Below are positions 199 through 51,468 of a DNA stretch of 63,527 bases, piece after piece (position 1 is the stretch's first letter; each line of letters begins with the position of its first letter). The stretch comes from an uncultured Mycoplasmatota bacterium. Its GTDB lineage: Bacteria; Bacillota_I; Bacilli_A; RF39; UBA660. Below the pieces are notes generated by a model. That model did not search any database and was not told where the DNA came from. It saw only the letters and a program-made list of their open reading frames with translations. The stretch covers positions 1 to 63,527 of the forward strand of contig CAMVED010000005.1 of NCBI GenBank assembly GCA_947166445.1. Reading direction: 5' to 3'. The position numbers and the translations under genes are program-made.

Positions 199-1182
199 AT
201 GAGTTTTATTGTTGTTAAAAACTTAAATAAAACATTTAAGGTGTTACAAAGAGATAGTGGCCTTATGAATGCTTTTAAATCCTTATTTAAAAGAAAATAT
301 AAAGAGATTAAAGCAGTAGATAACATTTCATTTAATATTAATAAAGGTGAAATTGTTGCATACATAGGGCCAAATGGCGCTGGGAAATCTACTACTATAA
401 AGATGCTTACAGGAATACTTAAACCTGATAGTGGTACTATTTTAGTAGATAAACTTAATCCATTTAATGACAGAGTAAAATATGTCAAAAATATAGGAGT
501 GGTCTTTGGACAAAAGAGCCAGCTATGGTGGGATATACCTGTGGAAGATTCATTTCTTCTTTTAAAAGACATTTACAAACTTGATGATAAAGAGTATGAA
601 AAGACGAAAGAAGAACTGGTAGAACTTCTTAATTTAAAAGATTTTTTAAAAACGCCAGTTAGGCAACTTAGTCTAGGACAGAGAATGCGCTGCGAAATTG
701 CCGCATCATTACTTCACAATCCTAAAATTTTATTTTTAGATGAACCTACTATTGGATTAGATGCAATTTCTAAAGTAGCTGTAAGAAAGTTCATCAAAGA
801 AATAAACAAAAAGAAAAAAGTAACTATTATATTAACTAGTCATGACATGAGTGATATTGAAGCTCTTACTAATAGAATTATAGTAATTGGTCATGGAAAG
901 ATTTTATATGATGGTTCACTTAATGGCATCAAGAAAAAATTCAATAAGGAAAAGAAACTTGAAATAATATACAAAAAGTTAGATAGTATTCCAAAAATTA
1001 AAGATGTAGAAGTTATGCATAAAGAAAAGAACAAAGTTTTACTAAATGTTAACATGGAAAGCAACTCTATTTCTGATGTAATAAGAGAATACTCTAAAGT
1101 ATGTGAGATAGCAGATGTTAATATTTTAGAAAATAGTATTGATGATATTATAGTAAAACTTTATAAAGAATATAATTTATGA
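199..1182 (+). CDS. ABC transporter ATP-binding protein (ABC-2/DrrA-like exporter)
   Basis: Walker A GPNGAGKST, signature LSLGQ, Walker B LFLDEPT; SD AGGAGG upstream. Confidence 0.9.
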   Translation: MSFIVVKNLNKTFKVLQRDSGLMNAFKSLFKRKYKEIKAVDNISFNINKGEIVAYIGPNGAGKSTTIKMLTGILKPDSGTILVDKLNPFNDRVKYVKNIGVVFGQKSQLWWDIPVEDSFLLLKDIYKLDDKEYEKTKEELVELLNLKDFLKTPVRQLSLGQRMRCEIAASLLHNPKILFLDEPTIGLDAISKVAVRKFIKEINKKKKVTIILTSHDMSDIEALTNRIIVIGHGKILYDGSLNGIKKKFNKEKKLEIIYKKLDSIPKIKDVEVMHKEKNKVLLNVNMESNSISDVIREYSKVCEIADVNILENSIDDIIVKLYKEYNL

Positions 1183-1979
1183 AACCATATTTATCTTATT
1201 TTAAAAGTGAACTTTTAGTTGGACTTCAATATAAAGAAGCAGCTTTAGCAGGTCTTACTACACAGTTCTTTTGGGGAATATTATATGCTTTTGTATATCA
1301 AGCTTTTTATAATCACACTGGTGTCAATACCATTAATTTTAAAGAGCTCATGTGTTATGTTTGGCTTAATCAAGCTTTCTTTTCATTGATAATATTTATT
1401 TTAAGAGATAATCAAATTATGGAGCAAATAAAAAATGGTACGGTAGCATACGAGTTGTGCAGACCATACGATCTATACTGGTGGTGGTTTTTAAAACATT
1501 TATCCAAAAGATACGCATCTTGTTTTTTAAGATGTTTGCCTGTTTTAGTTTTTGCATTTTTACTACCCAAGCCATATAATTTAACTTTACCTATTTCTAT
1601 AGAAGCATTTGTTTTATTTCTAATTGCTTTATTTTTAGGATCAATAATTATAGTATCCATGGTTATGATTATTCAAACAATTAGTTTTTTTACATATCAA
1701 GATAAAGGTATTACAAGTATTTTCGGTACAATTGGAGGACTTCTTTCAGGACTTGATATTCCACTTCCACTTTTGCCTGTTGTATTTTTAAGTGTTACAG
1801 AATTTTTGCCCTTTAGATTAATAAGTGATTTATCACAGAGGTTATATTCTGGAAATATTGGCATAGAATATGGATTAAAAAGTATTGGATTACAAATTAT
1901 TTGGATAATAATATTAGTAATTATTGGTAAACTACTTATGAAAATAGCTTTAAGAAAGGTTTCAATACAAGGCGGATAG
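1179..1979 (+). CDS. ABC-2 family transporter permease
   Basis: Multiple TM helices, GTVAYELCRP motif, overlaps the ATPase stop codon. Confidence 0.8.
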   Translation: MKPYLSYFKSELLVGLQYKEAALAGLTTQFFWGILYAFVYQAFYNHTGVNTINFKELMCYVWLNQAFFSLIIFILRDNQIMEQIKNGTVAYELCRPYDLYWWWFLKHLSKRYASCFLRCLPVLVFAFLLPKPYNLTLPISIEAFVLFLIALFLGSIIIVSMVMIIQTISFFTYQDKGITSIFGTIGGLLSGLDIPLPLLPVVFLSVTEFLPFRLISDLSQRLYSGNIGIEYGLKSIGLQIIWIIILVIIGKLLMKIALRKVSIQGG

Positions 1980-1980
1980 A

Positions 1981-2757
1981 ATGAAACTATTTTTAAAGTA
2001 TATATCTCTTCATTTAAAAATAAGTTTAGAGTATAAATCTTCATTTATAATGACTATTATTTCACAAACTTTAGCTATGTTTGTAGAATTATTTACTGTT
2101 TATTCTTTATTTTTAAAGTTTAAACTTCTGGATATTTACAATCCTTTTGAACTGCTTTTAGGTTTTTCTACTCTTTGGCTTGGTTATTCTTTAGTAGAAT
2201 TATTTGCAAGAGGTTTTGATCATTTTTCTAGAATAATAGTTAATGGTAATTTTGACATTCTATTAATTAGACCTGCAAATTTATTTATTCAAATATGTGG
2301 AACTGATATATGTCACGAAAAGATAGGAAGAGTTATTATATCATTGTTAATATTTATATATAGTTCTATTAAAGTAATTAGTCATTTTACTATTTATAAA
2401 CTCTTATTACTTATTTTAATGGTATTTGGATGTGTTGTTATCATATTTTCAATCTTTATAATCGGCGCAACTATATGTTTTTTAACTATCCAAGGACTTG
2501 AAGCTGTTAATATTATCACCAATGGTACAAGACAAGTTTGTCAATATCCAATGGGGATATATAAAAAAGCAGTAAAGATATTCTTTACTACAGTTATTCC
2601 TTTATCACTTGTTAATTATTATCCACTTGATTATTTAACAGGAAGAACAGATAATATTTTATATGTATTTATGCCAATACTTACAATAATAATGTTTTTT
2701 ATAAGTAAATTTATATTTAATCTAGGGCTTAGAAAGTACTGTAGTACCGGATCATAG
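1981..2757 (+). CDS. ABC-2 family transporter permease (second subunit)
   Basis: Hydrophobic, GNFDILLIRP and QYPMGIY motifs; operonic with the two genes above. Confidence 0.8.
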   Translation: MKLFLKYISLHLKISLEYKSSFIMTIISQTLAMFVELFTVYSLFLKFKLLDIYNPFELLLGFSTLWLGYSLVELFARGFDHFSRIIVNGNFDILLIRPANLFIQICGTDICHEKIGRVIISLLIFIYSSIKVISHFTIYKLLLLILMVFGCVVIIFSIFIIGATICFLTIQGLEAVNIITNGTRQVCQYPMGIYKKAVKIFFTTVIPLSLVNYYPLDYLTGRTDNILYVFMPILTIIMFFISKFIFNLGLRKYCSTGS

Positions 2758-2787
2758 AAAAAAGGAAGATTCTTTCTTCCTTTTTTT
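2758..2787. terminator. Bidirectional intrinsic terminator
   Basis: AAAAAAGGAAGA-ttctt-TCTTCCTTTTTT inverted repeat between convergent genes. Confidence 0.8.
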
Positions 2788-2791
2788 ATTA

Positions 2792-3271
2792 TTACAATTC
2801 ATACCCTAGCCTTTCTAACTCTAGTATAGTTATTAAGGATAAGTTTTCTTTTTTTAATTCTTTTATGCTATAAAATGATGCTCCAAGTGAATCATCGTTT
2901 TGTTTATCAATTTTTACTTCTTCTTTTATATTTCCTTCATGTTTTGTTACTTTATAAAATATTCCTATATGATGTACTTTTATTAAAGTATTATTATAGT
3001 TCCAATCTGCTATAACTGAATTTGCATCATATAACTCATATTCTGTAGGTGTTACTCCTGTTTCTTCTTTCAGTTCTCTTACTAAAGTTTCTTTTGGTGT
3101 TTCTCCAAACTCAAATGATCCTCCGGGAAGATCTAGCTTTCCATCGTATGGTCCAGTTACTTTTTTTATTAAAAGTATTTTATCATCTTTTATAACTATT
3201 CCATATACTCCAATATGTGTATGGGCTTTTATTTTGTTTCCATTCTTATCAATTATTTCTTTTATATTCAT
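2792..3271 (-). CDS. Nudix hydrolase
   Basis: Nudix box GGSFEFGETPKETLVRELKEETG. Confidence 0.9.
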   Translation of the reverse strand: MNIKEIIDKNGNKIKAHTHIGVYGIVIKDDKILLIKKVTGPYDGKLDLPGGSFEFGETPKETLVRELKEETGVTPTEYELYDANSVIADWNYNNTLIKVHHIGIFYKVTKHEGNIKEEVKIDKQNDDSLGASFYSIKELKKENLSLITILELERLGYEL

Positions 3272-3770
3272 TTAATACCTCCAACATTTCTTCTACTATG
3301 ATTTTGTTTATTGGATTATCTGGAATACTATTTATTAATACTTGTTCTATATTATCCAAATTGATGTACTCTATTTTATAATTTCCTTTTGTTTCCCAAT
3401 CATCTAGATTAGCATTATTCATATTAGCTTTTTCGTCTGTTTTTATAGAAAAATAATATATTTCATTTTTTCTATTTAATCCTGTATCTCTATAATTTTT
3501 ACTATAATATGTAATTTTTTCAAATGCTTTTAGATTAGTATTTTTTATATCTATTCCCGTTTCTTCTTTTACTTCTCTTTTTAAACCTTCTTCAAGTGTT
3601 TCGTTTTCTTCAAGATGACCTCCAGGAAATTGATATGTTTTGTGACAATATCCAAGAGCTATTTCATTTTTGCTATTTATTAACAATGCCTTTACTCTTA
3701 TTACTGTTTCATCTATATCATTTTCTTTTAGGTTATCATGATTATAAACTATTTTTTTCATAAAATTCAT
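3249..3770 (-). CDS. Nudix hydrolase
   Basis: Nudix box GGHLEENETLEEGLKREVKEETG. Confidence 0.9.
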   Translation of the reverse strand: MNFMKKIVYNHDNLKENDIDETVIRVKALLINSKNEIALGYCHKTYQFPGGHLEENETLEEGLKREVKEETGIDIKNTNLKAFEKITYYSKNYRDTGLNRKNEIYYFSIKTDEKANMNNANLDDWETKGNYKIEYINLDNIEQVLINSIPDNPINKIIVEEMLEVLNEYKRNN

Positions 3771-4293
3771 CTTTTAATATATCCATTTTTATATCATCAT
3801 ATCTTTTTCCGTTATGAAATTTTGCTTCTCTAATTCTTCCTGCTTCTTTAAATCCTACTTTTTTATAACATGCAATTGCTTGTTCATTAAATGAATAAAC
3901 TCCTAAATACATGTTGTGAAGGTTTAATGTATTAAATCCATAGTCAAGAAGCATTCTAAGTGTTTCTTGTCCATATCCTTTTCCTCTTACTGATTCTTCT
4001 CCAATTAATATTCCTACTTCCGCGGTCTGATTTATTTGATTAATATTCATAATTGAACAAGTGCCTATTAAAGTATCATTTTCTTTTGTTACTATACTGA
4101 AACAATGATCACCTTTCTTCGTTACTTCTTGAAGATATTCTATTTCATTTTCAAGTGTTGTGACATCTTTTGTTTTTCCTATTCCATCTGTTACTCTATA
4201 ATCATTTAACCATTTTGTATAGATTGGTGCATCTTCTAGCATCATAGGTCCTAAATATATATTTTCACTCTCTAGTTTTTTAAAATACTTCAT
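3742..4293 (-). CDS. GNAT N-acetyltransferase (RimJ/RimL/SpeG-like)
   Basis: RGKGYG acetyl-CoA motif, NEQAIACYKKVGF. Confidence 0.85.
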   Translation of the reverse strand: MKYFKKLESENIYLGPMMLEDAPIYTKWLNDYRVTDGIGKTKDVTTLENEIEYLQEVTKKGDHCFSIVTKENDTLIGTCSIMNINQINQTAEVGILIGEESVRGKGYGQETLRMLLDYGFNTLNLHNMYLGVYSFNEQAIACYKKVGFKEAGRIREAKFHNGKRYDDIKMDILKDEFYEKNSL

Positions 4294-4310
4294 AATTTTA
4301 CCTCCTTATT

Positions 4311-4919
4311 TTAGTTGTTAACACTTTTTGTTATAAATTCTATTACATCATCTTCATTTACTTTTATTAGTTCCTTATCTTCTTCAGTTATTTCTGTAAA
4401 GTATTTATCTAAATTCTTATATTTCGATATTGAATTTAAAGGATAACCTTTATTTATCTTATCTGATGGCTTTTCTACCATATAAAAGTTTTCTTTACTC
4501 CATGTATAAGTACTTTCTTCACCTTTTTGGTTGATAACTGCTAAACCATATACCCACTTACAATCTAGTTTTCCATTTGTTCCATATTGTTTTACTAAAC
4601 CTGTATAATGCTTTATCATTTCTTCGTCTGTTAGAGTTTTGCCATTTACTCTTCTTACATATAATCCTGGTTGTTTATCTTCTGGGACACCTTCCAAATA
4701 TAAAGTGTCATCCATTCCCATAACAGGCATGTGTGTTTCATTATAATATGCTCTTGCTTTTATAAGAGCGTTTTCTATTGCAGTTTTACCATTTTCGTTA
4801 ACGTCTATGTTTATATTTAAATCTTTTAATGATAATAGTTCAATATCATTTTCTAATAATCCTTGTTTAAAACGATTTAATTTACTTTGATTACTTGTCG
4901 CAAATAATAGTTTTTTCAT
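4311..4919 (-). CDS. Ham1/ITPase family non-canonical purine NTP pyrophosphatase
   Basis: FATSNQSK N-terminus, ENGKTAIENALIKA, DDTL, PGLYVRR motifs. Confidence 0.8.
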   Translation of the reverse strand: MKKLLFATSNQSKLNRFKQGLLENDIELLSLKDLNINIDVNENGKTAIENALIKARAYYNETHMPVMGMDDTLYLEGVPEDKQPGLYVRRVNGKTLTDEEMIKHYTGLVKQYGTNGKLDCKWVYGLAVINQKGEESTYTWSKENFYMVEKPSDKINKGYPLNSISKYKNLDKYFTEITEEDKELIKVNEDDVIEFITKSVNN

Positions 4920-5406
4920 AATTACCTCTTATATATATTTTTTTAAATAAATATCCATGTGATTCTTTGAACTGATTGTTTTCTATTAGTTTTAATATTT
5001 GTTCTTTTGTTAACCATTCTACTTTTTCTACTTCTTCTTTTTGTAGTGTTAAGTTATTTAAATCTATATTACAATTGAATTCATAGACACTGAAAAGACA
5101 TGGTGCTGTTGGATGCTTTTCTAATGATGTAAATCTTAGATCTTCTTTTGTTACTTTTAAACCTAATTCTTCTTGTATTTCTCTTATGATGCATTCAAGT
5201 GGGGTTTCATTAGTAGTTATATGTCCTCCAGTTGTACTGTAATCTCCACCTTTTTCTTTGCTTGTTTTTTGAATTAAATATTGATTGTCTTTGTTTTTTA
5301 TAAATACAATACTTAACATTATTTTACCTTCTGAATACTTTTTGCCGCGTTCCACTGTTTTATTTAACTTGTTTCCATTGTCATCATATAAATCTAATAA
5401 TTCCAT
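4891..5406 (-). CDS. Nudix hydrolase (IDI/YfcD-like)
   Basis: ELLDLYD N-terminus; GGHITTNETPLECIIREIQEELG; LQKEEV. Confidence 0.85.
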   Translation of the reverse strand: MELLDLYDDNGNKLNKTVERGKKYSEGKIMLSIVFIKNKDNQYLIQKTSKEKGGDYSTTGGHITTNETPLECIIREIQEELGLKVTKEDLRFTSLEKHPTAPCLFSVYEFNCNIDLNNLTLQKEEVEKVEWLTKEQILKLIENNQFKESHGYLFKKIYIRGNYEKTIICDK

Positions 5407-5419
5407 TTTTACCTCTTTT

Positions 5420-6043
5420 TTATATCTTTAATTTATTTCTTTTTGTATATCTTATTTCTTTTGTTTTTGTATCTTTTGATACAAACCACATTAAAAGTGA
5501 TCCTATAAAGTTACCTAGTATACAAATCAATATTGAAGTGTGCCAAGCTCTAGCTACTCCCATTGTTATGATGTTTGCTATGCAATGTTGGAAACCACAG
5601 AAAATGAATAAAGGTATGCCGAATATGATACCTAACGGAGTTCCTTTTCTATACATATATACTGCTATATACATTATGATTCCACATAAAACTGATTTTA
5701 CGAAGAATGCTAATGACACATCCCAAGTTTTTACTTTTTCTACTGCATTTTTGAATACTTCTGGATCTGTTACCGAGTAAAGTAATCCTAAAAGATAACC
5801 TGCGATTAGATTTATTAACAATATTGTTAATAAATCAGTTACTTTTATTTTGTCTTCAATTAGAAATCCACATTTACCTGTGAATAAGTTTTGACCCATG
5901 TAGCATACTCCAAGCAATCCTAGAGAGAAAAGAACTGGTCCAATAGGACTTCCTAGTTTTAATAGAGCGTAATCTCCAAGTGAAATTAATATTGCTGCTC
6001 CAATACTTTTGTTTATTAATTCTATTTTTTTCATAAAAAACAC
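5420..6043 (-). CDS. Short formate/nitrite transporter (FNT) family protein
   Basis: LFTG, GIICGIIM-like, FIFCGFQHCIAN, GNFIG motifs; TM-rich. Confidence 0.8.
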   Translation of the reverse strand: MFFMKKIELINKSIGAAILISLGDYALLKLGSPIGPVLFSLGLLGVCYMGQNLFTGKCGFLIEDKIKVTDLLTILLINLIAGYLLGLLYSVTDPEVFKNAVEKVKTWDVSLAFFVKSVLCGIIMYIAVYMYRKGTPLGIIFGIPLFIFCGFQHCIANIITMGVARAWHTSILICILGNFIGSLLMWFVSKDTKTKEIRYTKRNKLKI

Positions 6044-6089
6044 CTCACTTTAAAACTATTATATACTTTTTAGCATTATAAAAACAAGA

Positions 6090-6740
6090 CTATTGTAGTC
6101 TTGTTCTAAGTCTTGTTAAAATTTCTTTCTCCTTTCTTGATACTTTTACTTGATTTATACCAAGTTCTTTTGATAGTTCACTTTGAGTTAAACCTTCTTC
6201 ATATCTTTTCATTATAATATTTCTATCATATTCGTTTAAATTATCTAGCTCCTTTCTTAAATCTAATATATCTTCTCTATACATTTGCTCTTCATATCTA
6301 ACTTTGTTATATAGATTCTGTTCTTCTTCGTTTTCAGTTTCTAAACTGATCATTAAGTTATTGGCCTCCTTGGCCTGCCGGATGCTTTCTATATCTATTT
6401 CTAGAAACAATGCTATGTCATCATCGGTTGGAACATGACCTATTCTTTGTGTTAAATAGTCTTTTGCTTTTTCAATTGAAGTATTTAATTTTATTAATTC
6501 TTTACTTACTTTCATCATATTTGAATTTCTAATAAATTCTTTTACTTTTCCTGAAACATAAAAGTATGCAAACGATGAGAACTTTGTATTTTTATCACCT
6601 TTATAGTGGTCATAGGCATCCATTAGTCCTATCATTCCTACTTGATACAAGTCATCTTTATCAAAGTAATAAGTATATTTATTTATTATGGAATAAACAA
6701 TATTTTCGTTTTCTAATAAAACCTCTGCTTTATCTTTCAT
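6090..6740 (-). CDS. sigF: Sporulation sigma factor, SigF-like (N-terminally short)
   Basis: DDLYQVGMIGL region 2.2, KFSSFA, region 4 TQSELSKELGINQVKVSR; overlaps spoIIAA by ATGA. Confidence 0.75.
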   Translation of the reverse strand: MKDKAEVLLENENIVYSIINKYTYYFDKDDLYQVGMIGLMDAYDHYKGDKNTKFSSFAYFYVSGKVKEFIRNSNMMKVSKELIKLNTSIEKAKDYLTQRIGHVPTDDDIALFLEIDIESIRQAKEANNLMISLETENEEEQNLYNKVRYEEQMYREDILDLRKELDNLNEYDRNIIMKRYEEGLTQSELSKELGINQVKVSRKEKEILTRLRTRLQ

Positions 6741-7072
6741 ATGCTTATCATCTCGTATGCTGCTTTTTCTTCATTTACTTGGTAAAGATTATCTGTTAGT
6801 ATTTGATTTGCTTTTAATATTCTATCCATTCCACAGAGAATAAGTTTACCACTATTGTTTACTATTTGTTTATAACTAGATTCTATAGCTTCCAGGCCAA
6901 AGTGGTCTATATAACTTAATTGTTTCAGGTTTAGGAGTACATATTTTATTCCATTATTTTTTATTACAGTTTCTAGATCATTTTTAAATAATAGAACAGT
7001 ATCTCCGTTTAGTATTCCTTTTAATCTTGTTACTAATATTCCATGTTTAAATTCCATATCTATATCTAACAT
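6737..7072 (-). CDS. spoIIAA: Anti-sigma factor antagonist (STAS), SpoIIAA-like, phospho-Ser site altered
   Basis: VTRLKGIL, VLLNLKQLSYID.G, YKQI...GKLILC match SpoIIAA; DSSG replaced by DHFG. Confidence 0.75.
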   Translation of the reverse strand: MLDIDMEFKHGILVTRLKGILNGDTVLLFKNDLETVIKNNGIKYVLLNLKQLSYIDHFGLEAIESSYKQIVNNSGKLILCGMDRILKANQILTDNLYQVNEEKAAYEMISI

Positions 7073-7249
7073 TTAATCGACTCCTTTTCTTTTATGTTAA
7101 AAATATATCAATCTACGTGGTAGGTTTATGTCGATTATTGGTAATAGATTAAAACATTATTAGACAATTTTGTTTTATGCATAATAAAAAAACCTCCTCA
7201 TATATATATTTCACAAAAACTATATATATTACCTAGGTTTTTAGTTTTT

Positions 7250-18095: not shown

Positions 18096-19682
18096 CTATT
18101 TTAATCTAAATGATTTGTAGTTACTCCATGGAGCATATGTTTTTTTACCATTTATTATTTTATATGCTCTTACTTTATAGTAATATGTTTTATTTTTCTT
18201 TGTATCTATTTTATAACCAATATATTTATCGTTTACTGTTTTTACAATACTATAATTTCTTGTTTTATATACTGATCTTGCTATTTGATATCCTGATGCA
18301 CCTTCAACTTTTTTCCATTTTACTTGTACTTTTGAATTATTATATTTTGTTACTGTTGGCAAATTCATTTTTGTAATTATATAATTTGTAGTTTTGTAAG
18401 TTCCACTTGTAATTATCTTGTTATTAAAATCACCAATTTGTATTTTTATATATGGTACTATTTTAAAGGCATATCTTGTGTTTTTTTCGAGTGCTTCTGT
18501 GGTATATATTGCTTTAGTTAAATCTTCGTTAATTCCACCACTAGTTTTTAATTTTACATCTGCTAAAAATTCCCATTTAGTAGAATTTCCCTTTTTTACA
18601 TATAAATAATTACCTGTTGCTCCAATTAATCCTTTTTGATCCGGATTATTCCATCCAAGATTAATAATATTAGAACTATTTATTTTAGCTGTTAAATTAG
18701 TTACTGGTTCTTTATATACTTTTACTAAATCACCTTTAATTGTAATATCATAATTAGGCATTACAAATGTATTGTAATTTGAATTATATTTTACACTTTT
18801 TGTAACATCTTCTCCTGTTGATGTTTTAATTATTCTAACATTTTCAACATTGTAAAAATATCTTAATTCACCATAAGCTGATTCATCAGTTCCATCATAA
18901 CCAAACACACCATCTTCATAAATAGTATATGAAGCAGGGTTAATTCTCATTTTATTACCATTCACACCAGTTTTTGGTATATATAAATACTCACTATCTG
19001 ATACTTCATTTTTTATATTATTCGCAGTGAAATTACCTATTTTTAGATAGTTAATCCATCCCATTTCTCGCGCTTGATATAATTCTTCAGCTTTATAAAC
19101 AGTTGTATCTCTTGAGTCTCCATAAGGACCTGCTAAAACAGAATGGTTACTAACTACATTTCCTATCAATCCTGTGCCATCACCTTCTCCAGAGTTATGA
19201 TCAAATGTTGTCACCTCTATATTTTTACTTTCAAATGTGATGCTTTTAACTTTTTCAGTTTCTATAGAGCCATTTCCTGGACAACTACTATTATCATATA
19301 CACAAATACCATTATATGAATCTATATATAAACTACCAGTACCACTTATAGTTAAATCTTGGCTTGAGAAAATTGCATAATCGTATTCGCCATATATTTT
19401 GTTGTCTCCAATTAGTACAATCTTAAATGCTTCGGTACCTTTATATGCTATTATGTTATACCAATAGTGACTATCTATTGTAACATTATCAAGTGTTAAA
19501 GTATTTGTAGAACTATCAAATGTAGCAGTTCCTTCATCACAGTTGATTGTTGTTTTTTCACTTGTAAATTCTTCTCCATTTATAAACAATCCATAGTTTT
19601 CAGTAGCTTGTACACTATTTATCGTTATAATACTTATTAATATTGTTGTTATAGTTAATAATAATTTTTTTATTTTTTTCAT
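18096..19682 (-). CDS. Secreted surface protein with C-terminal fibronectin type III domains
   Basis: Signal peptide; KWKKVEGASGYQIARS...YYYKVRAY Fn3 pattern; paralog at 49879-51468. Confidence 0.75.
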   Translation of the reverse strand: MKKIKKLLLTITTILISIITINSVQATENYGLFINGEEFTSEKTTINCDEGTATFDSSTNTLTLDNVTIDSHYWYNIIAYKGTEAFKIVLIGDNKIYGEYDYAIFSSQDLTISGTGSLYIDSYNGICVYDNSSCPGNGSIETEKVKSITFESKNIEVTTFDHNSGEGDGTGLIGNVVSNHSVLAGPYGDSRDTTVYKAEELYQAREMGWINYLKIGNFTANNIKNEVSDSEYLYIPKTGVNGNKMRINPASYTIYEDGVFGYDGTDESAYGELRYFYNVENVRIIKTSTGEDVTKSVKYNSNYNTFVMPNYDITIKGDLVKVYKEPVTNLTAKINSSNIINLGWNNPDQKGLIGATGNYLYVKKGNSTKWEFLADVKLKTSGGINEDLTKAIYTTEALEKNTRYAFKIVPYIKIQIGDFNNKIITSGTYKTTNYIITKMNLPTVTKYNNSKVQVKWKKVEGASGYQIARSVYKTRNYSIVKTVNDKYIGYKIDTKKNKTYYYKVRAYKIINGKKTYAPWSNYKSFRLK

Positions 19683-19825: not shown

Positions 19826-20596
19826 TTATAGTTGTTTTCGTACTCTTTGGATAGCACTTTTTTCTAGTCTTGATATTTGAGCTTGGCTTATACCTATCTC
19901 TTCTGCTATTTCCATTTGTGTTTTTCCTATTACGAATCTTTGATCTAGAATGAATTGTTCCCTTTCTGATAGATTTTTAATTGCTTTATCTACTGCTAAT
20001 CTTAGATCCAAATCTTGATTTGTTGAATTATCTGCTACTTGATCAAATAGATATATTGTATCTCCTCCATCATTATAAATCGGTTCAAAAAGGCTTACTG
20101 GGGGTCTTAGAGCTTCCATTGCTGTTATAATGTCTTGTTCTTCTATCTCTAAAAGGTCTGCAAGTTCTTTATCAGTTGGCTCTACTCCGTTTTTTACTGT
20201 TAATTCATCTTTTAATTTTATTACTTTATAAGCAATATCTTTTATACTTCTACTTATTCTAATACTATTGTTATCTCTTAAGTAACGTCTTACTTCTCCA
20301 AGAACCATAGGTACACAGTATGTCGAGAACTTCACTCCATAAGATAGATCAAAGTTATCGATTGCTTTTACTAGTCCAATGCATCCTACTTGAAATAAAT
20401 CATCCATATTTTCATCTTTTTTATTAAATCTTTTTAGTATTGATAAAACTAATTTTAAGTTACCATTTATTAATCTTTCTCTAGCTTTGTTATCACCTTT
20501 GTTCATTTTTTTAAATAACTCTTCCATTTCTTCTTGAGTTAGTACTTCTATATCGTTTGTATTCATTCCTGTTATTTCTACTTTATGTTTTGCCAT
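19826..20596 (-). CDS. sigG: Late forespore sigma factor SigG
   Basis: KVEITGMNT N-terminus, GNLKLVLSI, DDLFQVGCIGL, EPIYNDGGDTIYLFDQV, GKTQMEIAEEIGISQAQISR. Confidence 0.92.
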   Translation of the reverse strand: MAKHKVEITGMNTNDIEVLTQEEMEELFKKMNKGDNKARERLINGNLKLVLSILKRFNKKDENMDDLFQVGCIGLVKAIDNFDLSYGVKFSTYCVPMVLGEVRRYLRDNNSIRISRSIKDIAYKVIKLKDELTVKNGVEPTDKELADLLEIEEQDIITAMEALRPPVSLFEPIYNDGGDTIYLFDQVADNSTNQDLDLRLAVDKAIKNLSEREQFILDQRFVIGKTQMEIAEEIGISQAQISRLEKSAIQRVRKQL

Positions 20597-20649
20597 TAAA
20601 AAAACTCCTTTCATATCTGTATTGATATAAAAAGAGTTTTTTTATTCAT

Positions 20650-21504
20650 TTACTTATTAAAAATACTTTTTAGATTTAAACTAGCATTATAAATTTCTTT
20701 TTTAGAAAGGTTTTGATTTTCTTTATTAAGTTTATCAACCGCTTCTTTTAAAGATATATTATCTTTTACTATGTAATCTATAAGCATAGATTCTATTGAT
20801 ATATTGGTTTCTTTTTTTATTATTTGTTCTTGTTTTTCTATAACAAATGTATATTCTCCTGCTTGTGCTTTTTCATCTTTTTTTAATTCTTTTAATACTT
20901 TTGTTATATCTCCATAATAGTTTTTTTCATGGAGTTTAGTTAGTTCTTTACAAATGCTTACTTTTATATTTGAAAATTCTTTTTCTAACACTTCAAGTGT
21001 TTTAATTATTCTTTTTGGAGATTCATAAAAGACATATGTTTTTATACTTGAACTTTTTATTATTTTTATAAGTTTATTTTGATCTTTCTTTTCTCTTGGG
21101 AAGAATCCATAATATGTAAAACTTGTAGTATCTAGTCCACTTATAGAAAGTGCTGTTATTACCGCAGATATACCTCCGATACCATATACCGGTATTTTCT
21201 CTTCTCTAGCCTTTCTTACTATTACTTCCCCAGGATCATTAATACATGGTGTACCTGCATCTGATATAACTGCAATGTTTTTTCCTTCTTTTAAATCTTT
21301 TATTATGGAATTACTTCTATCTTGTTCATTAAACTTATGATAAGAAACTAGTTTATTTTTTATGTCAAAATGATTTAATAATTTCAAACTATTTCTAGTA
21401 TCTTCACAAAGAATATAATCTACTTCTTTTAAGGTTTCTATAGCTCTTTGTGTCATATCTTTTAAGTTTCCTATTGGGGTTGCTACTATATATAAATTTC
21501 CCAT
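20650..21504 (-). CDS. rsmI: 16S rRNA C1402 2'-O-methyltransferase
   Basis: LYIVATPIGNL, CEDTR, SDAGTPCINDPG, YESPKR, KELTKLHE. Confidence 0.95.
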   Translation of the reverse strand: MGNLYIVATPIGNLKDMTQRAIETLKEVDYILCEDTRNSLKLLNHFDIKNKLVSYHKFNEQDRSNSIIKDLKEGKNIAVISDAGTPCINDPGEVIVRKAREEKIPVYGIGGISAVITALSISGLDTTSFTYYGFFPREKKDQNKLIKIIKSSSIKTYVFYESPKRIIKTLEVLEKEFSNIKVSICKELTKLHEKNYYGDITKVLKELKKDEKAQAGEYTFVIEKQEQIIKKETNISIESMLIDYIVKDNISLKEAVDKLNKENQNLSKKEIYNASLNLKSIFNK

Positions 21505-32420: not shown

Positions 32421-33734
32421 TTAAAGTTTTAATTTTCTTGATGGCCCTCTATATATAAAGTTTGTATCCATAATATTATCTATTTCTAAAGTTTTCATAA
32501 GTACTCTAGATAGTCCAAGGCCATAACCACCATGTGGTGGACATCCATACTTGAATAGTTCTAAATATGCTTTTAATTCATCTGGATTAATTCCTTTTTC
32601 AAGTACTTGATTTAATAATTTGTCATAGTTATGTTCCCTTAATGCACCAGTTGTTATTTCTAGACCGCGATATAATAAATCATAGCTCTTAGTATTACCA
32701 TTTTCATCTACCTGTTGATAGAATGCTCTTGATTCAAACGGAAATCCTTCTATAAATATAAAATCTGATTTAAAACATTCCAATGCATATTTGCCTAATA
32801 ATAATTCTTCTTTCCTATCAAAATCTGTTTTTCTTTCTCCAACATAATTGTATCTATTCTTTAATATTTGTTTAGCTTCAAAAAAAGTTATTCTTGGTAT
32901 AGTTGCATCTATATTAACCAATTTACTATTAAAATCATTTTTTATCATGTTGCCATATTTACTATTGAGCTTTTCAAAGCCATATTTCAAAAATTCTTCT
33001 TCAAAGTCTTCAATTTTTGAAATATTTTCTATCCATGATATTTCTACATCACACATATTAATTTCTGAAGCATGATAACTTGTATTTGATTTTTCGGCTC
33101 TGAAAGCTGGACCAATTTCAAATACTTTGTCAAATCCTGATGCCATTGCCATTTGTTTATAGAATTGCGGACTTTGTGCTAATGCTGCTTCTTGTCCAAA
33201 AAAATCTATTTTAAATACTTCACTACCGCTTTCTGCAGCTTTGGCAGTTATTTTTGGTGAATGTAATTCTATGAAATCATTTTTTATACAATACTGTCTA
33301 AGAGCATTTTCAAAATATGTTTCGATTTGGAATAATTTATAATTTTTCTCAGATCGCAAATCTAGATTTCTATAATCATGTCTAACACTTCTGCTTATAT
33401 TTTTTTCTTTATAATTTAATGGTAACTCCTCGGCTATTGATGTTACATTTATTTTAGTTGGAATAATTTCCATTCCATTTAGTTTTACATTTGGAGCTTC
33501 ATTTAATACACCTTCAATATTTACTGTACTATCAAGTGATAATGTTTTTACTGTTTCATTTAATTCCTTATTATTATCGTTTTTTTCAATGGTAACTTGT
33601 ACTTTTCCGGTATGATCTCTTAGTATCAAAAATTGAACATATTTCAAATCCTTTATATTATCTACAAAACCTGATACAGTAATTTTTTTATCTTTATATT
33701 TATTTAATTCATTCATGTATATTTTATTATTCAT
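32421..33734 (-). CDS. Divergent short-type (archaeal/AspRS2-like) aspartyl-tRNA synthetase paralog
   Basis: OB-fold LRDHTGKVQ, AQSPQFYKQ, FRAEKSNTSYH, GALREH, YGCPPHGGYGLGLSR. Confidence 0.85.
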   Translation of the reverse strand: MNNKIYMNELNKYKDKKITVSGFVDNIKDLKYVQFLILRDHTGKVQVTIEKNDNNKELNETVKTLSLDSTVNIEGVLNEAPNVKLNGMEIIPTKINVTSIAEELPLNYKEKNISRSVRHDYRNLDLRSEKNYKLFQIETYFENALRQYCIKNDFIELHSPKITAKAAESGSEVFKIDFFGQEAALAQSPQFYKQMAMASGFDKVFEIGPAFRAEKSNTSYHASEINMCDVEISWIENISKIEDFEEEFLKYGFEKLNSKYGNMIKNDFNSKLVNIDATIPRITFFEAKQILKNRYNYVGERKTDFDRKEELLLGKYALECFKSDFIFIEGFPFESRAFYQQVDENGNTKSYDLLYRGLEITTGALREHNYDKLLNQVLEKGINPDELKAYLELFKYGCPPHGGYGLGLSRVLMKTLEIDNIMDTNFIYRGPSRKLKL

Positions 33735-33757: not shown

Positions 33758-35074
33758 CTATGGTTCTATTCTGTTTGGACCTCTGAATAGTAGCATTGTT
33801 TCTTTTAAGCTCGGAAGACCTAGTAGTAACATGGTTAATCTATCAACTCCTATTGCAAATCCTCCATGTGGTGGACATCCATATTTAAAGAAGTCTAAAT
33901 AGAAATCTACGTCTTTTCCCAAACCTTTTTCTTTTGCTTGAGCTTTTAATATTTCATATCTATGTTCTCTTTGTGCTCCAGTTGTTATTTCAGTACCTCT
34001 CCAGATTAGGTCATATCCATTTGGAATACCATTTTCATCTCTCATATGATAGAATGCTCTTTTTTTGCTGCTAAAACCTGTTATAAATATAAATTCATGG
34101 CCATATTCTTCCATGGCATATTTAGATATTAATGATTCTGTTTCATTGTTCATATCTCCTACATCTTCTTCAGGAATCTTATATCCATATCTTTTATTTA
34201 GTTCTTGGTATACATCATTTAAATCCATTCTAGGAAAAGGTTTTGAAGGTACTATTACTTCTTTACCAAATATTTCTTTTATAGTTTCTCCATATTTTTC
34301 TTTTACCTTTGTAAGACCTGCAATTAAAAGATCTTCTTCTACATTCATTACGTCTTCAACACTATCAACATAAGCAAATTCTAGGTCAAATGATGTATAT
34401 TCAGTAGCATGGCGATAAGTATTAGATTTTTCTGCTCTAAATACTGGTCCTACTTCAAACACTTTATCAAGTCCACTTGCTAATACCATTTGTTTATAAA
34501 ATTGTGGTGATTGAGCTAAATAAGCACTTCTTTCAAAATACTTAACTTCAAAAACTTCGCTACCTGATTCTGAAGCAGCTGCTATTAGTTTCGGACTATG
34601 TATTTCACAAAAATTATTTTTATATAAATAATCTCTCATTCCTTCAGTCATACAGGATTCAATTTGTCTAATAAGCATATTCCTTTCATTTCTAATATCT
34701 AAGAAACGGTAATCAAGTCTTGTATCAATGTTAACCCCATCTAAATTATTATAGTCATATGGAAGTTCTTCTGCTTGTGATAAAACTTTTACTTCTTCTG
34801 GAATAATTTCTATTCCTCCAAGTTTTACTGCTTCGTTTTTTGAAACAGTACCATTTACTTCTACAACTGAATCTTTAGTTACTTTTTGGAACAATTCAAT
34901 CATTTCAGCATTTTTTTCTTCACTTTTTTCTAGTGTTAATTGAACTTTTCCTGTTGAGTCTCTTAGCACTACAAACATTACCCATTTTTTATCTCTTACT
35001 GTGTCTACAAAACCACTCATTACTACTTCTTTTCCAAGATGCTTTTCTAATTCATTTACAAATACTTTCTTCAT
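33758..35074 (-). CDS. aspS: Short-type (archaeal/AspRS2-like) aspartate--tRNA ligase
   Basis: LRDSTGKVQ, AQSPQFYKQ, FRAEKSNTYRH, GAQREH, YGCPPHGGFAIGVDR: all canonical. Confidence 0.93.
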   Translation of the reverse strand: MKKVFVNELEKHLGKEVVMSGFVDTVRDKKWVMFVVLRDSTGKVQLTLEKSEEKNAEMIELFQKVTKDSVVEVNGTVSKNEAVKLGGIEIIPEEVKVLSQAEELPYDYNNLDGVNIDTRLDYRFLDIRNERNMLIRQIESCMTEGMRDYLYKNNFCEIHSPKLIAAASESGSEVFEVKYFERSAYLAQSPQFYKQMVLASGLDKVFEVGPVFRAEKSNTYRHATEYTSFDLEFAYVDSVEDVMNVEEDLLIAGLTKVKEKYGETIKEIFGKEVIVPSKPFPRMDLNDVYQELNKRYGYKIPEEDVGDMNNETESLISKYAMEEYGHEFIFITGFSSKKRAFYHMRDENGIPNGYDLIWRGTEITTGAQREHRYEILKAQAKEKGLGKDVDFYLDFFKYGCPPHGGFAIGVDRLTMLLLGLPSLKETMLLFRGPNRIEP

Positions 35075-49878: not shown

Positions 49879-51468
49879 TTATTTTAGTTTATATGTTCTT
49901 ATACTACTCCATGGTCCACATATATTACCATTACAAGCTCTTACTTTATAATAATATGTTGTTCCTCTTTTTGCACTTACTGTCGTTTTAGAATAACTTG
50001 AACCTACTGTTTTAATTATGGTAAAGTTTTTAGTTTTATATTTTGATCTTGCTATTTGATATTTTGTAGTTCCATTTATTTTATTCCATTTTACTGTTAC
50101 TTTGCTATTGTTATATTTTAATACAGTTGGAATATTTAGTTTTTTTAACGTATAAATAGTTACTGTTTTATAAGTATCACTATATACTTTGTTACCATTT
50201 ATTACTGAATATGGCACTATTTTAAATGTGTATTTTGTACCAGGAGTAAAGTTTGCTTTTTTATATGATAGTTTAGTAGTAGTTCCTAAAGATGTATATT
50301 TTGTGGCAGTTCCTTTTTTATAATATATTTGATAATGACTTGCTTTTGTTGAAGTCCAAGTAAGACTTATATCATCATATCCATATAGTTTTGCAGTAAA
50401 TGTTTTTGGAACTACTTTAAAGTTTTTGATAAATGTTGTTTTTATTGTTATGTTATAGTTCGGCATAGTTAATTCATTAGTAGTTGAATCGAGTAAGCTA
50501 GATGTAATATCTTCTCCTTCTTCATTTAATATTTGAATACTATTTAACTTATAAATTTCATTACCATTATAATCGTCATGTCCACCTTCAACTCTAAGTT
50601 TTTGCCCTTCGAATGCTTGAGAAGGGGTTGCTAGAAGACTATTTGGTGTTGAACTATTAGTTACTTTGTATGTTTCAAAATCTCCAAGCTTTAAATATCT
50701 AATATAATAACTATCATGTAATGCTATAAGTTCATCTTTTGTTACTATGTCAGCGTTTGTTCCATCTTGTTCAAAACCTGCCATTATTTTTCCTTCATAA
50801 TCATCTAGTTTTAGATTACCAGTGATTGCTTCAAGTGAAGAAATTGTAATATTTCCTTTATAAATAGTTATATCTTGCTCTTCTTGTTGTTCATTCATAG
50901 CAAATAATCCTAGATCAGAAGAAATATTTAAATCCGTTCTATTGTCTATTGTTATACCAGATGCTGCATATATTCCAACTGTTGGATCATTGTTTGGGCC
51001 TGTAAAATTTATATTAATTGTTGATCCATTTGTATCTATTGCTCCATTTGAAAAGATTCCAACTTGCATATCACTACCTGTTGTCTTTGTACTGTTAATA
51101 TTTAATGATCCTGTTCCTGAAATTGATAGATCTCCGGATACTGCTATTGCGGCATTATAGTTTGAAGATATATTACTTATACCTTTAAGTTCTATTTTTA
51201 AAATGTCTTCATTATCGTAATAGATACCTTCAGTCATACCATCTTCATCTGTGTATGAATTTGTAATTATAGCATTATTAAGTGTTAATGTTTTTAGGGA
51301 TACATTGTAAGTCGCTGTACCACTTCCACAATGGATTGTTGTTTTTTCATTTGTAAATTCTTCACCATTTACAAACAGTCCTGTTCCTGTAGCAGCATTT
51401 ACATTTTTTGTTGTAAATACTAGCAAGATACTTATTAACAAAAATGTTAATATCTTAATTTTTTTCAT
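49879..51468 (-). CDS. Secreted surface protein with C-terminal Fn3 domains (paralog of 18096-19682)
   Basis: Signal peptide; GLFVNGEEFTNEKTTI; Fn3 KWNKINGTTKYQIARS..YYYKVRAC. Confidence 0.75.
   Translation of the reverse strand: MKKIKILTFLLISILLVFTTKNVNAATGTGLFVNGEEFTNEKTTIHCGSGTATYNVSLKTLTLNNAIITNSYTDEDGMTEGIYYDNEDILKIELKGISNISSNYNAAIAVSGDLSISGTGSLNINSTKTTGSDMQVGIFSNGAIDTNGSTININFTGPNNDPTVGIYAASGITIDNRTDLNISSDLGLFAMNEQQEEQDITIYKGNITISSLEAITGNLKLDDYEGKIMAGFEQDGTNADIVTKDELIALHDSYYIRYLKLGDFETYKVTNSSTPNSLLATPSQAFEGQKLRVEGGHDDYNGNEIYKLNSIQILNEEGEDITSSLLDSTTNELTMPNYNITIKTTFIKNFKVVPKTFTAKLYGYDDISLTWTSTKASHYQIYYKKGTATKYTSLGTTTKLSYKKANFTPGTKYTFKIVPYSVINGNKVYSDTYKTVTIYTLKKLNIPTVLKYNNSKVTVKWNKINGTTKYQIARSKYKTKNFTIIKTVGSSYSKTTVSAKRGTTYYYKVRACNGNICGPWSSIRTYKLK

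What the first reader, a model, noticed from the sequence alone, without database searches (positions are those of the whole stretch)
6090..7072. spoIIAA-sigF operon lacks spoIIAB, and SpoIIAA has lost its phosphorylatable serine
Seen: the spoIIAA stop overlaps the sigma ATG (ATGA), leaving no room for spoIIAB. The SpoIIAA motif reads YIDHFGL instead of FMDSSGL, and ELDHH is ILNGD. The sigma is only 216 aa and N-terminally short. Established: in B. subtilis SpoIIAB is both anti-sigmaF and the kinase for SpoIIAA Ser58 (the first S of DSSG), reversed by SpoIIE. Inference: the partner-switch that confines sigmaF to the forespore has been dismantled or rewired in a lineage that still keeps sigG, ylmC and cotJ. 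This implies a different way to compartmentalise sigmaF, or a relic sporulation programme.
Basis: partly seen in the sequence, partly recalled or inferred. Interest (0 to 1): 0.7.

Follow-up and report, generated by a model that had tools for sequence, protein, structure and literature searches.

The report
Kinase-less two-gene sigma-F sporulation operon
This uncultured gut bacterium, like its whole order, keeps the first spore-specific sigma factor and its small STAS partner. It has lost the kinase, the phosphatase and the phospho-serine of the textbook switch, so that sigma factor must be controlled in another way.

Summary
A 111-aa STAS gene (6737-7072, minus strand) overlaps a 216-aa sigma gene (6090-6740) by ATGA, with no room for spoIIAB.

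Four lines of evidence mark the pair as the orthologous spoIIA operon, not an RsbV/SigB module:
- synteny (dacF upstream, spoVAC/D/Eb downstream in relatives)
- a sigma tree
- PDB profile matches
- a predicted structure

No SpoIIAB was found in any of 251 genomes (110 genera) of the order. No SpoIIE was found in the 26 order genomes searched. The four sporulating outgroup genomes of the same class have both.

Ser58 is replaced by a hypervariable residue, while Asp57 and Gly60 stay fixed. The ELDHH and SGL motifs are gone.

The rest of the cascade persists: Spo0A, SpoIIR, SpoIIGA with sigma-E, sigma-G, sigma-K, spoVA and cotJ. Both genes are under purifying selection (omega about 0.02-0.15), so this is not a relic.

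New here: about 32-39 sigma-F-bearing genomes of the order have also lost the STAS gene, in several independent events. The STAS protein is therefore useful but dispensable.

How sigma-F is controlled remains unknown. A KEGG survey (PMC10868615) had already reported reduced presence or absence of spoIIAB and spoIIE in RF39. I class this as a new variant of a known kind.

The parts
7102..7136 (-). Conserved promoter-like block: AATCGACATAA (7126-7136; reverse 0A-box-like TCGACA core), then 15 nt, then TGATATATT (7102-7110; extended -10 type). The spacing from TCGACA to the -10 hexamer is about 21 nt.
   Evidence: Present at the same spacing in 15 of 15 genus genomes, while the rest of the intergenic region has diverged. 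Reading it as a Spo0A-activated sigma-A promoter, like B. subtilis spoIIG, is inference from memory of those promoters. The simple consensus scan did not call it.
7081..7084 (-). Ribosome-binding site GGAG, 8 nt before the STAS start codon
   Evidence: Read directly from the sequence. AAGGAG-like in all genus upstream regions.
6737..7072 (-). SpoIIAA-derived STAS protein, 111 aa, without the phosphorylatable serine
   Evidence: Pfam STAS 53.4 bits. NCBIfam anti-sigma antagonist superfamily 51.1 bits (cut-off 53.45) and spoIIAA equivalog 48 (cut-off 114.75). Best PDB sequence matches are SpoIIAA 1TH8/1TID/1AUZ at E 1e-19 to 1e-21. AF2 model pLDDT 86, pTM 0.81; best fold match is SpoIIAA in 1TH8, TM 0.86. 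omega 0.02-0.15.
6893..6913 (-). Former phosphorylation loop Y-I-D-H-F-G-L (canonical F-M-D-S-S-G-L). His57 stands at the Ser58 position.
   Evidence: Alignments. Across 55 unique STAS sequences of the order, Asp57 is 55/55 and Gly60 is 51/55. The Ser58 position is I/K/N/E/L/M/R/Y/G/H, with only S x2 and T x1.
7001..7015 (-). I-L-N-G-D in place of the canonical E-L-D-H-H loop
   Evidence: LNGDT is conserved within the genus.
6737..6740 (-). ATGA overlap of the STAS stop and the sigma start (translational coupling)
   Evidence: The same -4 overlap occurs in 24 of 59 unique loci, and the gap is 21 nt or less in most others.
6090..6740 (-). Sigma-F orthologue, 216 aa, with regions 2, 3 and 4
   Evidence: Pfam r2/r3/r4. 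Best NCBIfam models are SigB/F/G subfamily at 149.5 bits and SigF equivalog at 130.5 bits, both below cut-off, as are bona fide SigF genes of this class. It forms a clade with the SigF of G030, which sits next to spoIIAB (SH-aLRT 95), apart from SigG. omega 0.005-0.16.
6081..6107 (-). Terminator-like hairpin overlapping the sigma stop codon, followed by a U-run
   Evidence: RNAfold gives -14.3 kcal/mol, z -3.8, with 0 of 200 shuffles as stable. The consensus terminator scan did not call it.

Best explanation
SHOWN: The two genes are the orthologous spoIIA operon of an uncultured, genome-reduced order of GTDB class Bacilli. Genomes are about 1 Mb and 27% GC. The order is most probably RF39 and the genus probably UMGS1449.

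The operon has been reduced from spoIIAA-spoIIAB-sigF to STAS-sigF. No SpoIIAB anti-sigma kinase is found anywhere in the order, and no SpoIIE phosphatase in the 26 order genomes searched. The STAS protein has lost the phospho-serine and the other SpoIIAB-contact motifs, so the canonical phosphorylation-driven partner switch cannot operate.

The operon is nevertheless alive. Both genes are under purifying selection. Both the upstream regulator (Spo0A) and the downstream cascade are kept. That cascade includes SpoIIR, SpoIIGA with pro-sigma-E, sigma-G behind a forespore-type promoter, sigma-K, spoVA and cotJ.

INFERRED: The pair is transcribed from a conserved promoter that carries a 0A-box-like element, so Spo0A~P sets when sigma-F appears. 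Sigma-F is then controlled without phosphorylation. The translationally coupled STAS protein acts as a stoichiometric accessory modulator. It most plausibly binds sigma-F or an unknown partner, but it is not the sole gatekeeper, because several lineages of the order have lost it and kept sigma-F.

My odds: the canonical switch is truly absent and the operon is functional, about 0.85. The STAS protein acts directly on sigma-F, about 0.25-0.3.
For: Orthology:
- In same-class sporulators the order is (dacF)-spoIIAA-spoIIAB-sigF-spoVAC-VAD-VAEb. In this order it is STAS-sigma-spoVAC-VAD-VAEb, with dacF upstream in G020.
- Sigma tree.
- PDB profile and fold matches to SpoIIAA.

Absence:
- TIGR01925 is over cut-off in 0 of 251 order genomes (250 at least 90% complete, 110 genera), but in 4 of 15 other-family genomes of the class.
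- All weaker hits lie in ORFs of 330-920 aa, which are histidine kinases. The one 146-aa hit is half of a split kinase.
- TIGR02865 (SpoIIE) gives no hit at E<=1e-5 in 26 order genomes. It is present in exactly the four genomes that have SpoIIAB.

Retained programme:
- Spo0A is over cut-off in nearly all.
- SpoIIR and SpoIIGA are in the own genome and nearly all relatives.
- SigG and pro-sigma E/K-like genes.
- TGAATA-N18-CAATATA before sigG and TGAATA-N18-CATTACC before spoIIR.

Selection:
- NG86 omega is 0.02-0.15 for STAS and 0.005-0.16 for sigma, similar to the neighbouring TrmH-like gene.

Promoter:
- Found in 15 of 15 genus genomes.

STAS dispensability:
- Of 251 genomes, about 187 have both genes.
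- 32-39 have sigma-F but no STAS hit at E<=1e-6.
- 14 of these were checked at the locus and show no STAS ORF or six-frame remnant.
- The sigma tree needs 2-7 independent losses.
Against: - All genomes are MAGs, and the own genome is only 52.7% complete.
- No member of the order is cultured, and sporulation has never been observed. One machine-learning study scores RF39 MAGs at 0% sporulation probability (PMC12536801).
- No experiment or complex prediction links the STAS protein to sigma-F.
- No natural STAS-sigma fusion appears among the best 120 homologues.
- Sigma-F conservation is not visibly relaxed in STAS-less lineages.
- The former phospho-site at the centre of the old interface is hypervariable. 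That fits poorly with reuse of the same face for a tight new partner.
- An anti-sigma of an unrelated fold cannot be excluded by HMM searches.
- The order name RF39 rests on matching gene-loss profiles and NCBI labels. It is not a taxonomy look-up.
Confidence: 0.8

Rival explanations
1. Two-protein switch. The SpoIIAA-derived STAS protein has itself become the sigma-F-binding regulator, either inhibitor or chaperone. It is made 1:1 with sigma-F by translational coupling and is released or degraded in the forespore.
For: - ATGA coupling, or a gap of 21 nt or less, in most loci.
- Long-term retention under purifying selection in reduced genomes.
- Loops around the old interface are conserved within the genus with new residues: LNGDT and D-x-[YF]-G-L.
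- No other partner of the old switch is left.
Against: - STAS was lost 2-7 times with sigma-F kept intact.
- There is no relaxation or clustered change in sigma-F where STAS is absent.
- No Rosetta-stone fusion was found.
- The central residue of the old interface is hypervariable.
- To my knowledge, no STAS protein is known to bind a sigma factor directly.
Confidence: 0.27
2. Hidden partner. A non-homologous anti-sigma-F (for example a small FlgM-like or membrane protein) is encoded elsewhere. The STAS protein antagonises it without phosphorylation, regulated by ligand, redox state or abundance.
For: - There is precedent for kinase-independent STAS antagonists. M. tuberculosis UsfX with RsfA/RsfB is one; the UsfX-RsfB complex 8IH8 appears among the fold matches.
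- From memory, Pseudomonas HsbA binds FlgM.
- A STAS protein kept under selection needs some partner.
Against: - No stand-alone HATPase_c_2 protein exists in 121 genera of the family, so a UsfX-like protein is excluded.
- No third gene is conserved next to the pair. The upstream neighbour differs between genera.
- STAS loss in several lineages would leave such an anti-sigma unopposed.
Confidence: 0.15
3. Relic. The sporulation programme is decaying, and the STAS gene is a slowly eroding leftover, or merely a leader ORF for sigma-F translation.
For: - Genome reduction; loss of spoIIAB and spoIIE.
- Repeated loss of the STAS gene.
- About 21-28 of 251 genomes lack both sigma-F and STAS.
- RF39 MAGs are scored as non-sporulating by one tool.
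Against: - omega is 0.02-0.15 at the protein level, equal to a housekeeping neighbour.
- Intact ORFs persist across at least 90 genera that share only about 30% identity.
- Spo0A, SpoIIR, SpoIIGA, sigG, spoVA and cotJ are intact, with conserved promoters.
- The AF2 model is a well-folded STAS domain.
Confidence: 0.08
4. The pair is not sporulation-related at all. It would be a stress-type RsbV/SigB-like or FliA-like module.
For: - Scores are below the SigF and SpoIIAA equivalog cut-offs.
- FliA/WhiG and SigB models also match weakly.
Against: - Synteny with dacF and spoVA.
- The sigma is sister to a SigF that sits beside spoIIAB.
- SpoIIAA structures match at E 1e-21, against 1e-3 for RsbS.
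- No RsbW is present.
- The SigB equivalog scores 74.7 bits against 130.5 for SigF.
Confidence: 0.02

Closest known systems
Canonical spoIIA operon and partner switch (SpoIIAA-SpoIIAB-sigmaF with SpoIIE) of Bacillus subtilis and Geobacillus stearothermophilus (PDB 1TH8, 1TID, 1AUZ)
   Same: - Orthologous STAS and sigma genes.
- Same operon position, between dacF and spoVA in relatives.
- Tight translational coupling.
- Same STAS fold (TM 0.86).
- Same downstream cascade: SpoIIR, SpoIIGA, sigma-E, sigma-G.
   Different: - No SpoIIAB and no SpoIIE.
- No Ser58, and the ELDHH, GxGxxxGRY and SGL motifs are gone.
- The helix alpha-3 region is predicted with low confidence.
- Phosphorylation control is impossible as described for the canonical system.
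RF39 gene-content survey (Microb Genom 2024, PMC10868615)
   Same: [quoted passage not shown] It predicts sporulation 'with a markedly different ... regulation'.
   Different: It is a KEGG presence/absence table only. It gives no operon anatomy, no loss of Ser58, no selection analysis, no order-wide count per genome, and no secondary loss of the STAS gene.
Mycobacterium tuberculosis UsfX-RsfA/RsfB-SigF
   Same: A SigF-type sigma is controlled by a STAS antagonist (RsfA) that does not depend on phosphorylation by its anti-sigma. This is from memory. The UsfX-RsfB complex 8IH8 is among the fold matches.
   Different: That system still has a GHKL-fold anti-sigma (UsfX). None exists here.
RsbV-RsbW-SigB stress module
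   Same: A STAS antagonist together with a group-3 sigma factor.
   Different: There is no RsbW. The synteny and the tree are those of SigF. RsbS/RsbV structures match far worse than SpoIIAA.

Membership tests
SpoIIAA (anti-sigma-F antagonist, TIGR02886) | STAS fold | tested here: met
   Pfam STAS 53.4 bits. AF2 pLDDT 86. TM 0.82-0.86 to SpoIIAA in 1THN/1TH8.
SpoIIAA (anti-sigma-F antagonist, TIGR02886) | First gene of the spoIIA operon, orthologous by position and sequence | tested here: met
   Synteny with dacF, sigF and spoVA. N-terminus MLDIDMEF..GILFVRL is shared with the canonical SpoIIAA of G030. Best PDB hits are SpoIIAA.
SpoIIAA (anti-sigma-F antagonist, TIGR02886) | Phosphorylatable Ser58 in the D-S-S-G motif | tested here: not met
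   His in the window. Only 3 of 55 order sequences have S or T at this hypervariable site.
SpoIIAA (anti-sigma-F antagonist, TIGR02886) | Score over the curated equivalog cut-off | tested here: not met
   48 bits against a cut-off of 114.75.
Sigma-F (SigF, TIGR02885) | Group-3 sigma with regions 2, 3 and 4, clustering with SigF rather than SigG, E, K or A | tested here: met
   Pfam. In the tree, the clade of 26 is sister to the G030 SigF (95), and the SigG clade is separate (98).
Sigma-F (SigF, TIGR02885) | Score over the curated equivalog cut-off (321 bits) | tested here: not met
   130.5 bits. SigF genes beside spoIIAB in the same class score only 151-236 bits, so the cut-off is uninformative here.
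Sigma-F (SigF, TIGR02885) | Drives forespore genes (spoIIR, sigG) from GnATA...-type promoters | tested here: inconclusive
   TGAATA-N18-CA(A/T)TA-type motifs lie before sigG (conserved in the genus) and before spoIIR.
Phospho-dependent partner-switching module (STAS + GHKL anti-sigma kinase + PP2C phosphatase) | GHKL anti-sigma kinase (SpoIIAB or RsbW) | tested here: not met
   0 of 251 order genomes are over cut-off. PF13581 hits fall only in histidine kinases in 121 genomes.
Phospho-dependent partner-switching module (STAS + GHKL anti-sigma kinase + PP2C phosphatase) | PP2C phosphatase (SpoIIE or RsbU type) | tested here: not met
   No TIGR02865 hit at E<=1e-5 in 26 order genomes. PP2C-only proteins of other families were detected by the same search.
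RsbV-RsbW-SigB | SigB-type sigma with an adjacent RsbW | tested here: not met
   SigB equivalog 74.7 bits against a cut-off of 315. No RsbW.

The most novel reading that the evidence does not exclude
An entire order of gut Bacilli makes endospores without SpoIIAB and SpoIIE. In it the orphaned SpoIIAA has been converted into a phosphorylation-independent regulator that binds sigma-F directly, giving a two-protein STAS-sigma module. Some sub-lineages have simplified further, to a sigma-F with no dedicated post-translational regulator at all. Forespore specificity would then come from something other than a partner switch.
Probability: 0.25. Interest if true: 0.8.

Novelty: new variant of a known kind. 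Interest (0 to 1): 0.62.

Why it matters
[quoted passage not shown] They are also the textbook answer to how asymmetric division switches on the first cell-specific sigma factor.

Here is a large, common gut lineage that keeps Spo0A, sigma-F, the SpoIIR-SpoIIGA-sigma-E relay, sigma-G and sigma-K, but lacks the switch. It offers a natural experiment on two questions:
- What is the minimal requirement for compartmentalising sigma-F?
- What does an orphaned STAS antagonist do?

The within-order contrast between STAS-bearing and STAS-less species makes the second question directly testable.

The finding also bears on genome-based prediction of sporulation, and so of transmission, for uncultured gut bacteria. 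Tools that rely on spoIIAB as a universal marker (PMC12536801) will score this order as non-sporulating by construction.

Tried and rejected
- **Related loci:** The search for related loci with the broad STAS alignment failed because no conserved stretch was available. A narrower alignment worked.
- **Rosetta-stone test:** I searched 5.8 billion proteins with a STAS+sigma concatenate. All of the best 120 hits are sigma-only (66% coverage, about 216 aa). No fusion was seen, although more distant fusions were not inspected.
- **Small HATPase_c_2 ORF in G294:** this turned out to be the C-terminal half of a frame-split histidine kinase next to its response regulator. It is not an anti-sigma.
- **Lost interface on sigma-F:** I compared per-column entropy of sigma-F in STAS-bearing and STAS-less lineages. 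Mean entropy is 0.89 against 0.92. Only the already variable region 3.2 linker (positions 142-167) is slightly looser, and there is no clustered signal. The power is low (11 against 23 non-redundant sequences).
- **AF2 fusion run (considered, not run):** in L101-L104 the stop codon is in frame with sigF, so a natural in-frame STAS-stop-sigma read-through could be modelled. The tool returns no inter-domain contacts or PAE, so the result could not be interpreted.
- **Mirror-tree rate covariation (considered, dropped):** it is confounded by shared phylogeny.
- **spoVA:** spoVA is not downstream of sigF in this genome. This is relocation rather than loss in the closest relative G007, where spoVAD is on another contig. 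It cannot be judged in the 52.7%-complete own genome.
- **Consensus scans:** the promoter and terminator scans called neither the conserved promoter block nor the hairpin.

Full report
**Observation**

On the minus strand, a 111-aa ORF (6737-7072) ends in ATGA, which also starts a 216-aa ORF (6090-6740).
- The first ORF is a STAS domain (Pfam 53.4 bits). The second is a sigma-70 protein with regions 2, 3 and 4.
- NCBIfam ranks SigB/F/G (149.5 bits) and SigF (130.5 bits) first for the sigma. It ranks anti-sigma antagonist (51.1 bits) and SpoIIAA (48 bits) first for the STAS protein. All are below the curated cut-offs.
- The loop reads YIDHFGL where canonical SpoIIAA has FMDSSGL, and GILNGDT replaces GELDHHT.

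**Source genome**

The window is contig 5 of a 755-kb MAG with 27% GC, estimated 52.7% complete. Absence in this genome alone would prove little, so relatives were used.

**Orthology**

Four same-class genomes carry canonical spoIIAB (G029, G030, G033, G038). In three of them (G029, G030, G038) the gene order is (dacF)-spoIIAA-spoIIAB-sigF-spoVAC-spoVAD-spoVAEb. In the window's family and in the second family of the order it is STAS-sigma-spoVAC-spoVAD-spoVAEb. dacF lies upstream in G020, and a metK gene is inserted between the two genes in G017.

Thirteen of 15 same-genus genomes show TrmH-STAS-sigma-spoVAC/D/Eb.

In a maximum-likelihood tree, the 26 short sigmas form one clade (SH-aLRT 95). 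That clade is sister to the SigF of G030 that sits beside spoIIAB (95). It is separate from the SigG clade (98) and from the sigma E/K-like and RpoD proteins.

A profile of the STAS proteins matches SpoIIAA structures 1TH8, 1TID and 1AUZ at E 1e-19 to 1e-21, against 1e-3 for RsbS. The AF2 model (pLDDT 86, pTM 0.81) superposes best on SpoIIAA from the SpoIIAB complex (TM 0.82-0.86). Only the helix alpha-3 region (residues 81-95) is modelled with low confidence.

The equivalog cut-offs are uninformative here. SigF genes beside spoIIAB in this class score only 151-236 bits against a cut-off of 321.

**What is missing**

*SpoIIAB (TIGR01925).* It is over cut-off in none of 16 same-genus genomes, 8 other genera of the family, or 1 genome of the second family. 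It is over cut-off in 4 of 15 other families of the class. In an even sample of 251 genomes of the order (250 at least 90% complete, 110 genera) the count is again zero. The only two hits at E<=1e-12 lie in 433-aa kinases.

*HATPase_c_2 (PF13581).* In 121 genomes of the family it hits only histidine-kinase-sized ORFs. The single 146-aa exception is half of a split kinase.

*SpoIIE (TIGR02865).* It gives no hit at E<=1e-5 in any of the 26 order genomes tested. It is found in exactly the four genomes that have SpoIIAB, and the same search did detect PP2C-only proteins elsewhere.

*STAS motifs.* In 55 unique STAS sequences of the order, Asp57 is invariant and Gly60 nearly so. The Ser58 position is I, K, N, E, L, M, R, Y, G or H, with S twice and T once. 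Within the genus alone it is H, N, K, R, Y or G.

**What is kept**
- Spo0A is over cut-off in almost all family genomes.
- SpoIIR (own genome C1:86926-87387) and SpoIIGA (own genome C4:47066-47632, next to a sigma-E-like gene) are present in the own genome and nearly all relatives.
- sigG, a pro-sigma-K-like gene, ylmC and cotJB/cotJC are present.
- sigG is preceded by TGAATA-N18-CAATATA, conserved in the genus. spoIIR is preceded by TGAATA-N18-CATTACC. Both are forespore-type promoters by my recollection of the sigma F/G consensus.

**Selection and regulation**

Pairwise NG86 omega for the closest unsaturated pairs is 0.02-0.15 for STAS and 0.005-0.16 for sigma. The neighbouring TrmH-like gene gives 0.05-0.18.

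Upstream of the STAS gene, all 15 genus genomes share (A/T)(T/C)GACATAA-15 nt-TGnTATAnT. The window copy is at 7102-7136. The rest of the spacer has diverged.
- TCGACA is the core of a reverse 0A box.
- TGn marks an extended -10.
- The roughly 21-nt spacing recalls the Spo0A-activated spoIIG promoter. This last point is inference from memory.

A hairpin overlapping the sigma stop codon (6081-6107, -14.3 kcal/mol, z -3.8) may end the transcript.

The STAS gene is itself dispensable in parts of the order. I crossed a STAS-profile search (191 of 251 genomes positive) with a sigma-F-profile search. The sigma-F search was calibrated so that SigG scores about 157-183 bits and sigma-F at least about 220 bits. 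The result:

| Class | Genomes |
|---|---|
| Both STAS and sigma-F | about 187 |
| Sigma-F without STAS | 32-39 |
| Neither | 21-28 |
| STAS on a contig fragment without sigma-F | 4 |

For 14 STAS-less genomes from 10 genera, the sigma-F locus was fetched. Sigma-F is intact, usually followed by spoVAC/D/Eb. No STAS ORF or six-frame remnant exists within 1.2 kb upstream.

On the sigma-F tree the losses need 7 events, with at least 2 forced by well-supported branches. The 25-member clade that holds the window is uniformly STAS-positive.

Sigma-F conservation is not detectably relaxed where the STAS gene is gone. No STAS-sigma fusion protein was seen among the best 120 homologues.

**Mechanism**

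Shown: the phosphorylation-driven partner switch is absent, and the two-gene operon is functional and embedded in an otherwise intact early-sporulation cascade.

Inferred: Spo0A~P times transcription, and sigma-F is then controlled without phosphorylation.

The STAS protein must do something, given purifying selection over an order-level time span in deletion-prone genomes. That role is accessory, given the repeated losses. My odds:
- about 0.27 for direct action on sigma-F
- about 0.15 for an unknown non-GHKL partner
- about 0.08 for a relic or leader ORF
- the remainder for an undefined accessory role

**Comparison with the literature**

[quoted passage not shown] This matches the gene profile found here. 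Together with NCBI labels such as 'uncultured Tenericutes bacterium UMGS1449', it suggests RF39, genus UMGS1449. The name was not verified.

That paper does not describe the operon anatomy, the loss of Ser58, the selection regime, or the secondary loss of the STAS gene. A sporulation predictor that treats spoIIAB as universal scores RF39 at 0%.

Earlier notes of this scan describe the same two-gene operon in other RF39-type genomes. I re-derived their core claims independently. The STAS-loss result tempers their boldest reading.

**Limits**
- The genomes are MAGs only, with no cultured member.
- No complex prediction was possible.
- HMM searches cannot exclude an anti-sigma of a novel fold.

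Noticed in passing
window 7102-7136 (-): A conserved block AATCGACATAA-15 nt-TGATATATT lies upstream of the STAS gene. It is present at the same spacing in 15 of 15 genus genomes. It looks like a 0A-box-like element plus an extended -10, with a long (about 21 nt) spacer, as in Spo0A-activated promoters.
   Followed up: partly
window 5420-6043 (-) and 3742-5406 (-): In 13 of 15 genus genomes spoVAC/D/Eb follow sigF directly. In this genome and in G007 they are replaced by a 207-aa FNT-like membrane protein and Nudix/other genes. G007 has spoVAD on another contig. None was found in the 52.7%-complete own genome.
   Followed up: partly
window about 20615-20650 (-), upstream of sigG (19826-20614): A forespore-type promoter TGAATA-N18-CAATATA is conserved upstream of sigG across the genus. 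The true sigG start is probably the MAKHK methionine, 6 codons inside the listed ORF. A similar TGAATA-N18-CATTACC lies before spoIIR on own contig C1 near 86860.
   Followed up: partly
order-level loci L149-L162: About 32-39 of roughly 226 sigma-F-bearing genomes of the order have no STAS gene at all. 14 were checked at the locus. On the sigma-F tree this needs 2-7 independent losses.
   Followed up: yes
L045 (G017) 1160-3657: In one genus a metK (S-adenosylmethionine synthetase, 388 aa) gene is inserted between the STAS gene and sigF. This breaks the translational coupling while both genes stay intact.
   Followed up: no
G025:C28:9933-10674 (second family of the order): spo0A appears split into two pieces by an in-frame TAG. 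G023 (genus g8) has only a weak Spo0A match (134 bits), no sigma-F and no STAS. These are probable examples of lineages leaving the sporulation programme.
   Followed up: no
window 18096-19682 (-) and 49879-51468 (-): Two paralogous secreted proteins of about 528 aa share an N-terminal block (GLF(I/V)NGEEFT(S/N)EKTTI(N/H)C..GTAT) and C-terminal repeat units ending in YYYKVRA. They are likely surface proteins of unknown function.
   Followed up: no
window 32421-33734 (-) and 33758-35074 (-): Two tandem class-II aminoacyl-tRNA synthetase paralogues of the Asp/Asn type (437 and 438 aa) lie side by side.
   Followed up: no
window 6081-6107 (-): A 12-bp hairpin whose 5' arm encodes the last residues of sigma-F (RTRLQ*), followed by UUUUUAUAAU. 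It may be an intrinsic terminator overlapping the stop codon. It fits the absence of spoVA downstream in this genome.
   Followed up: partly
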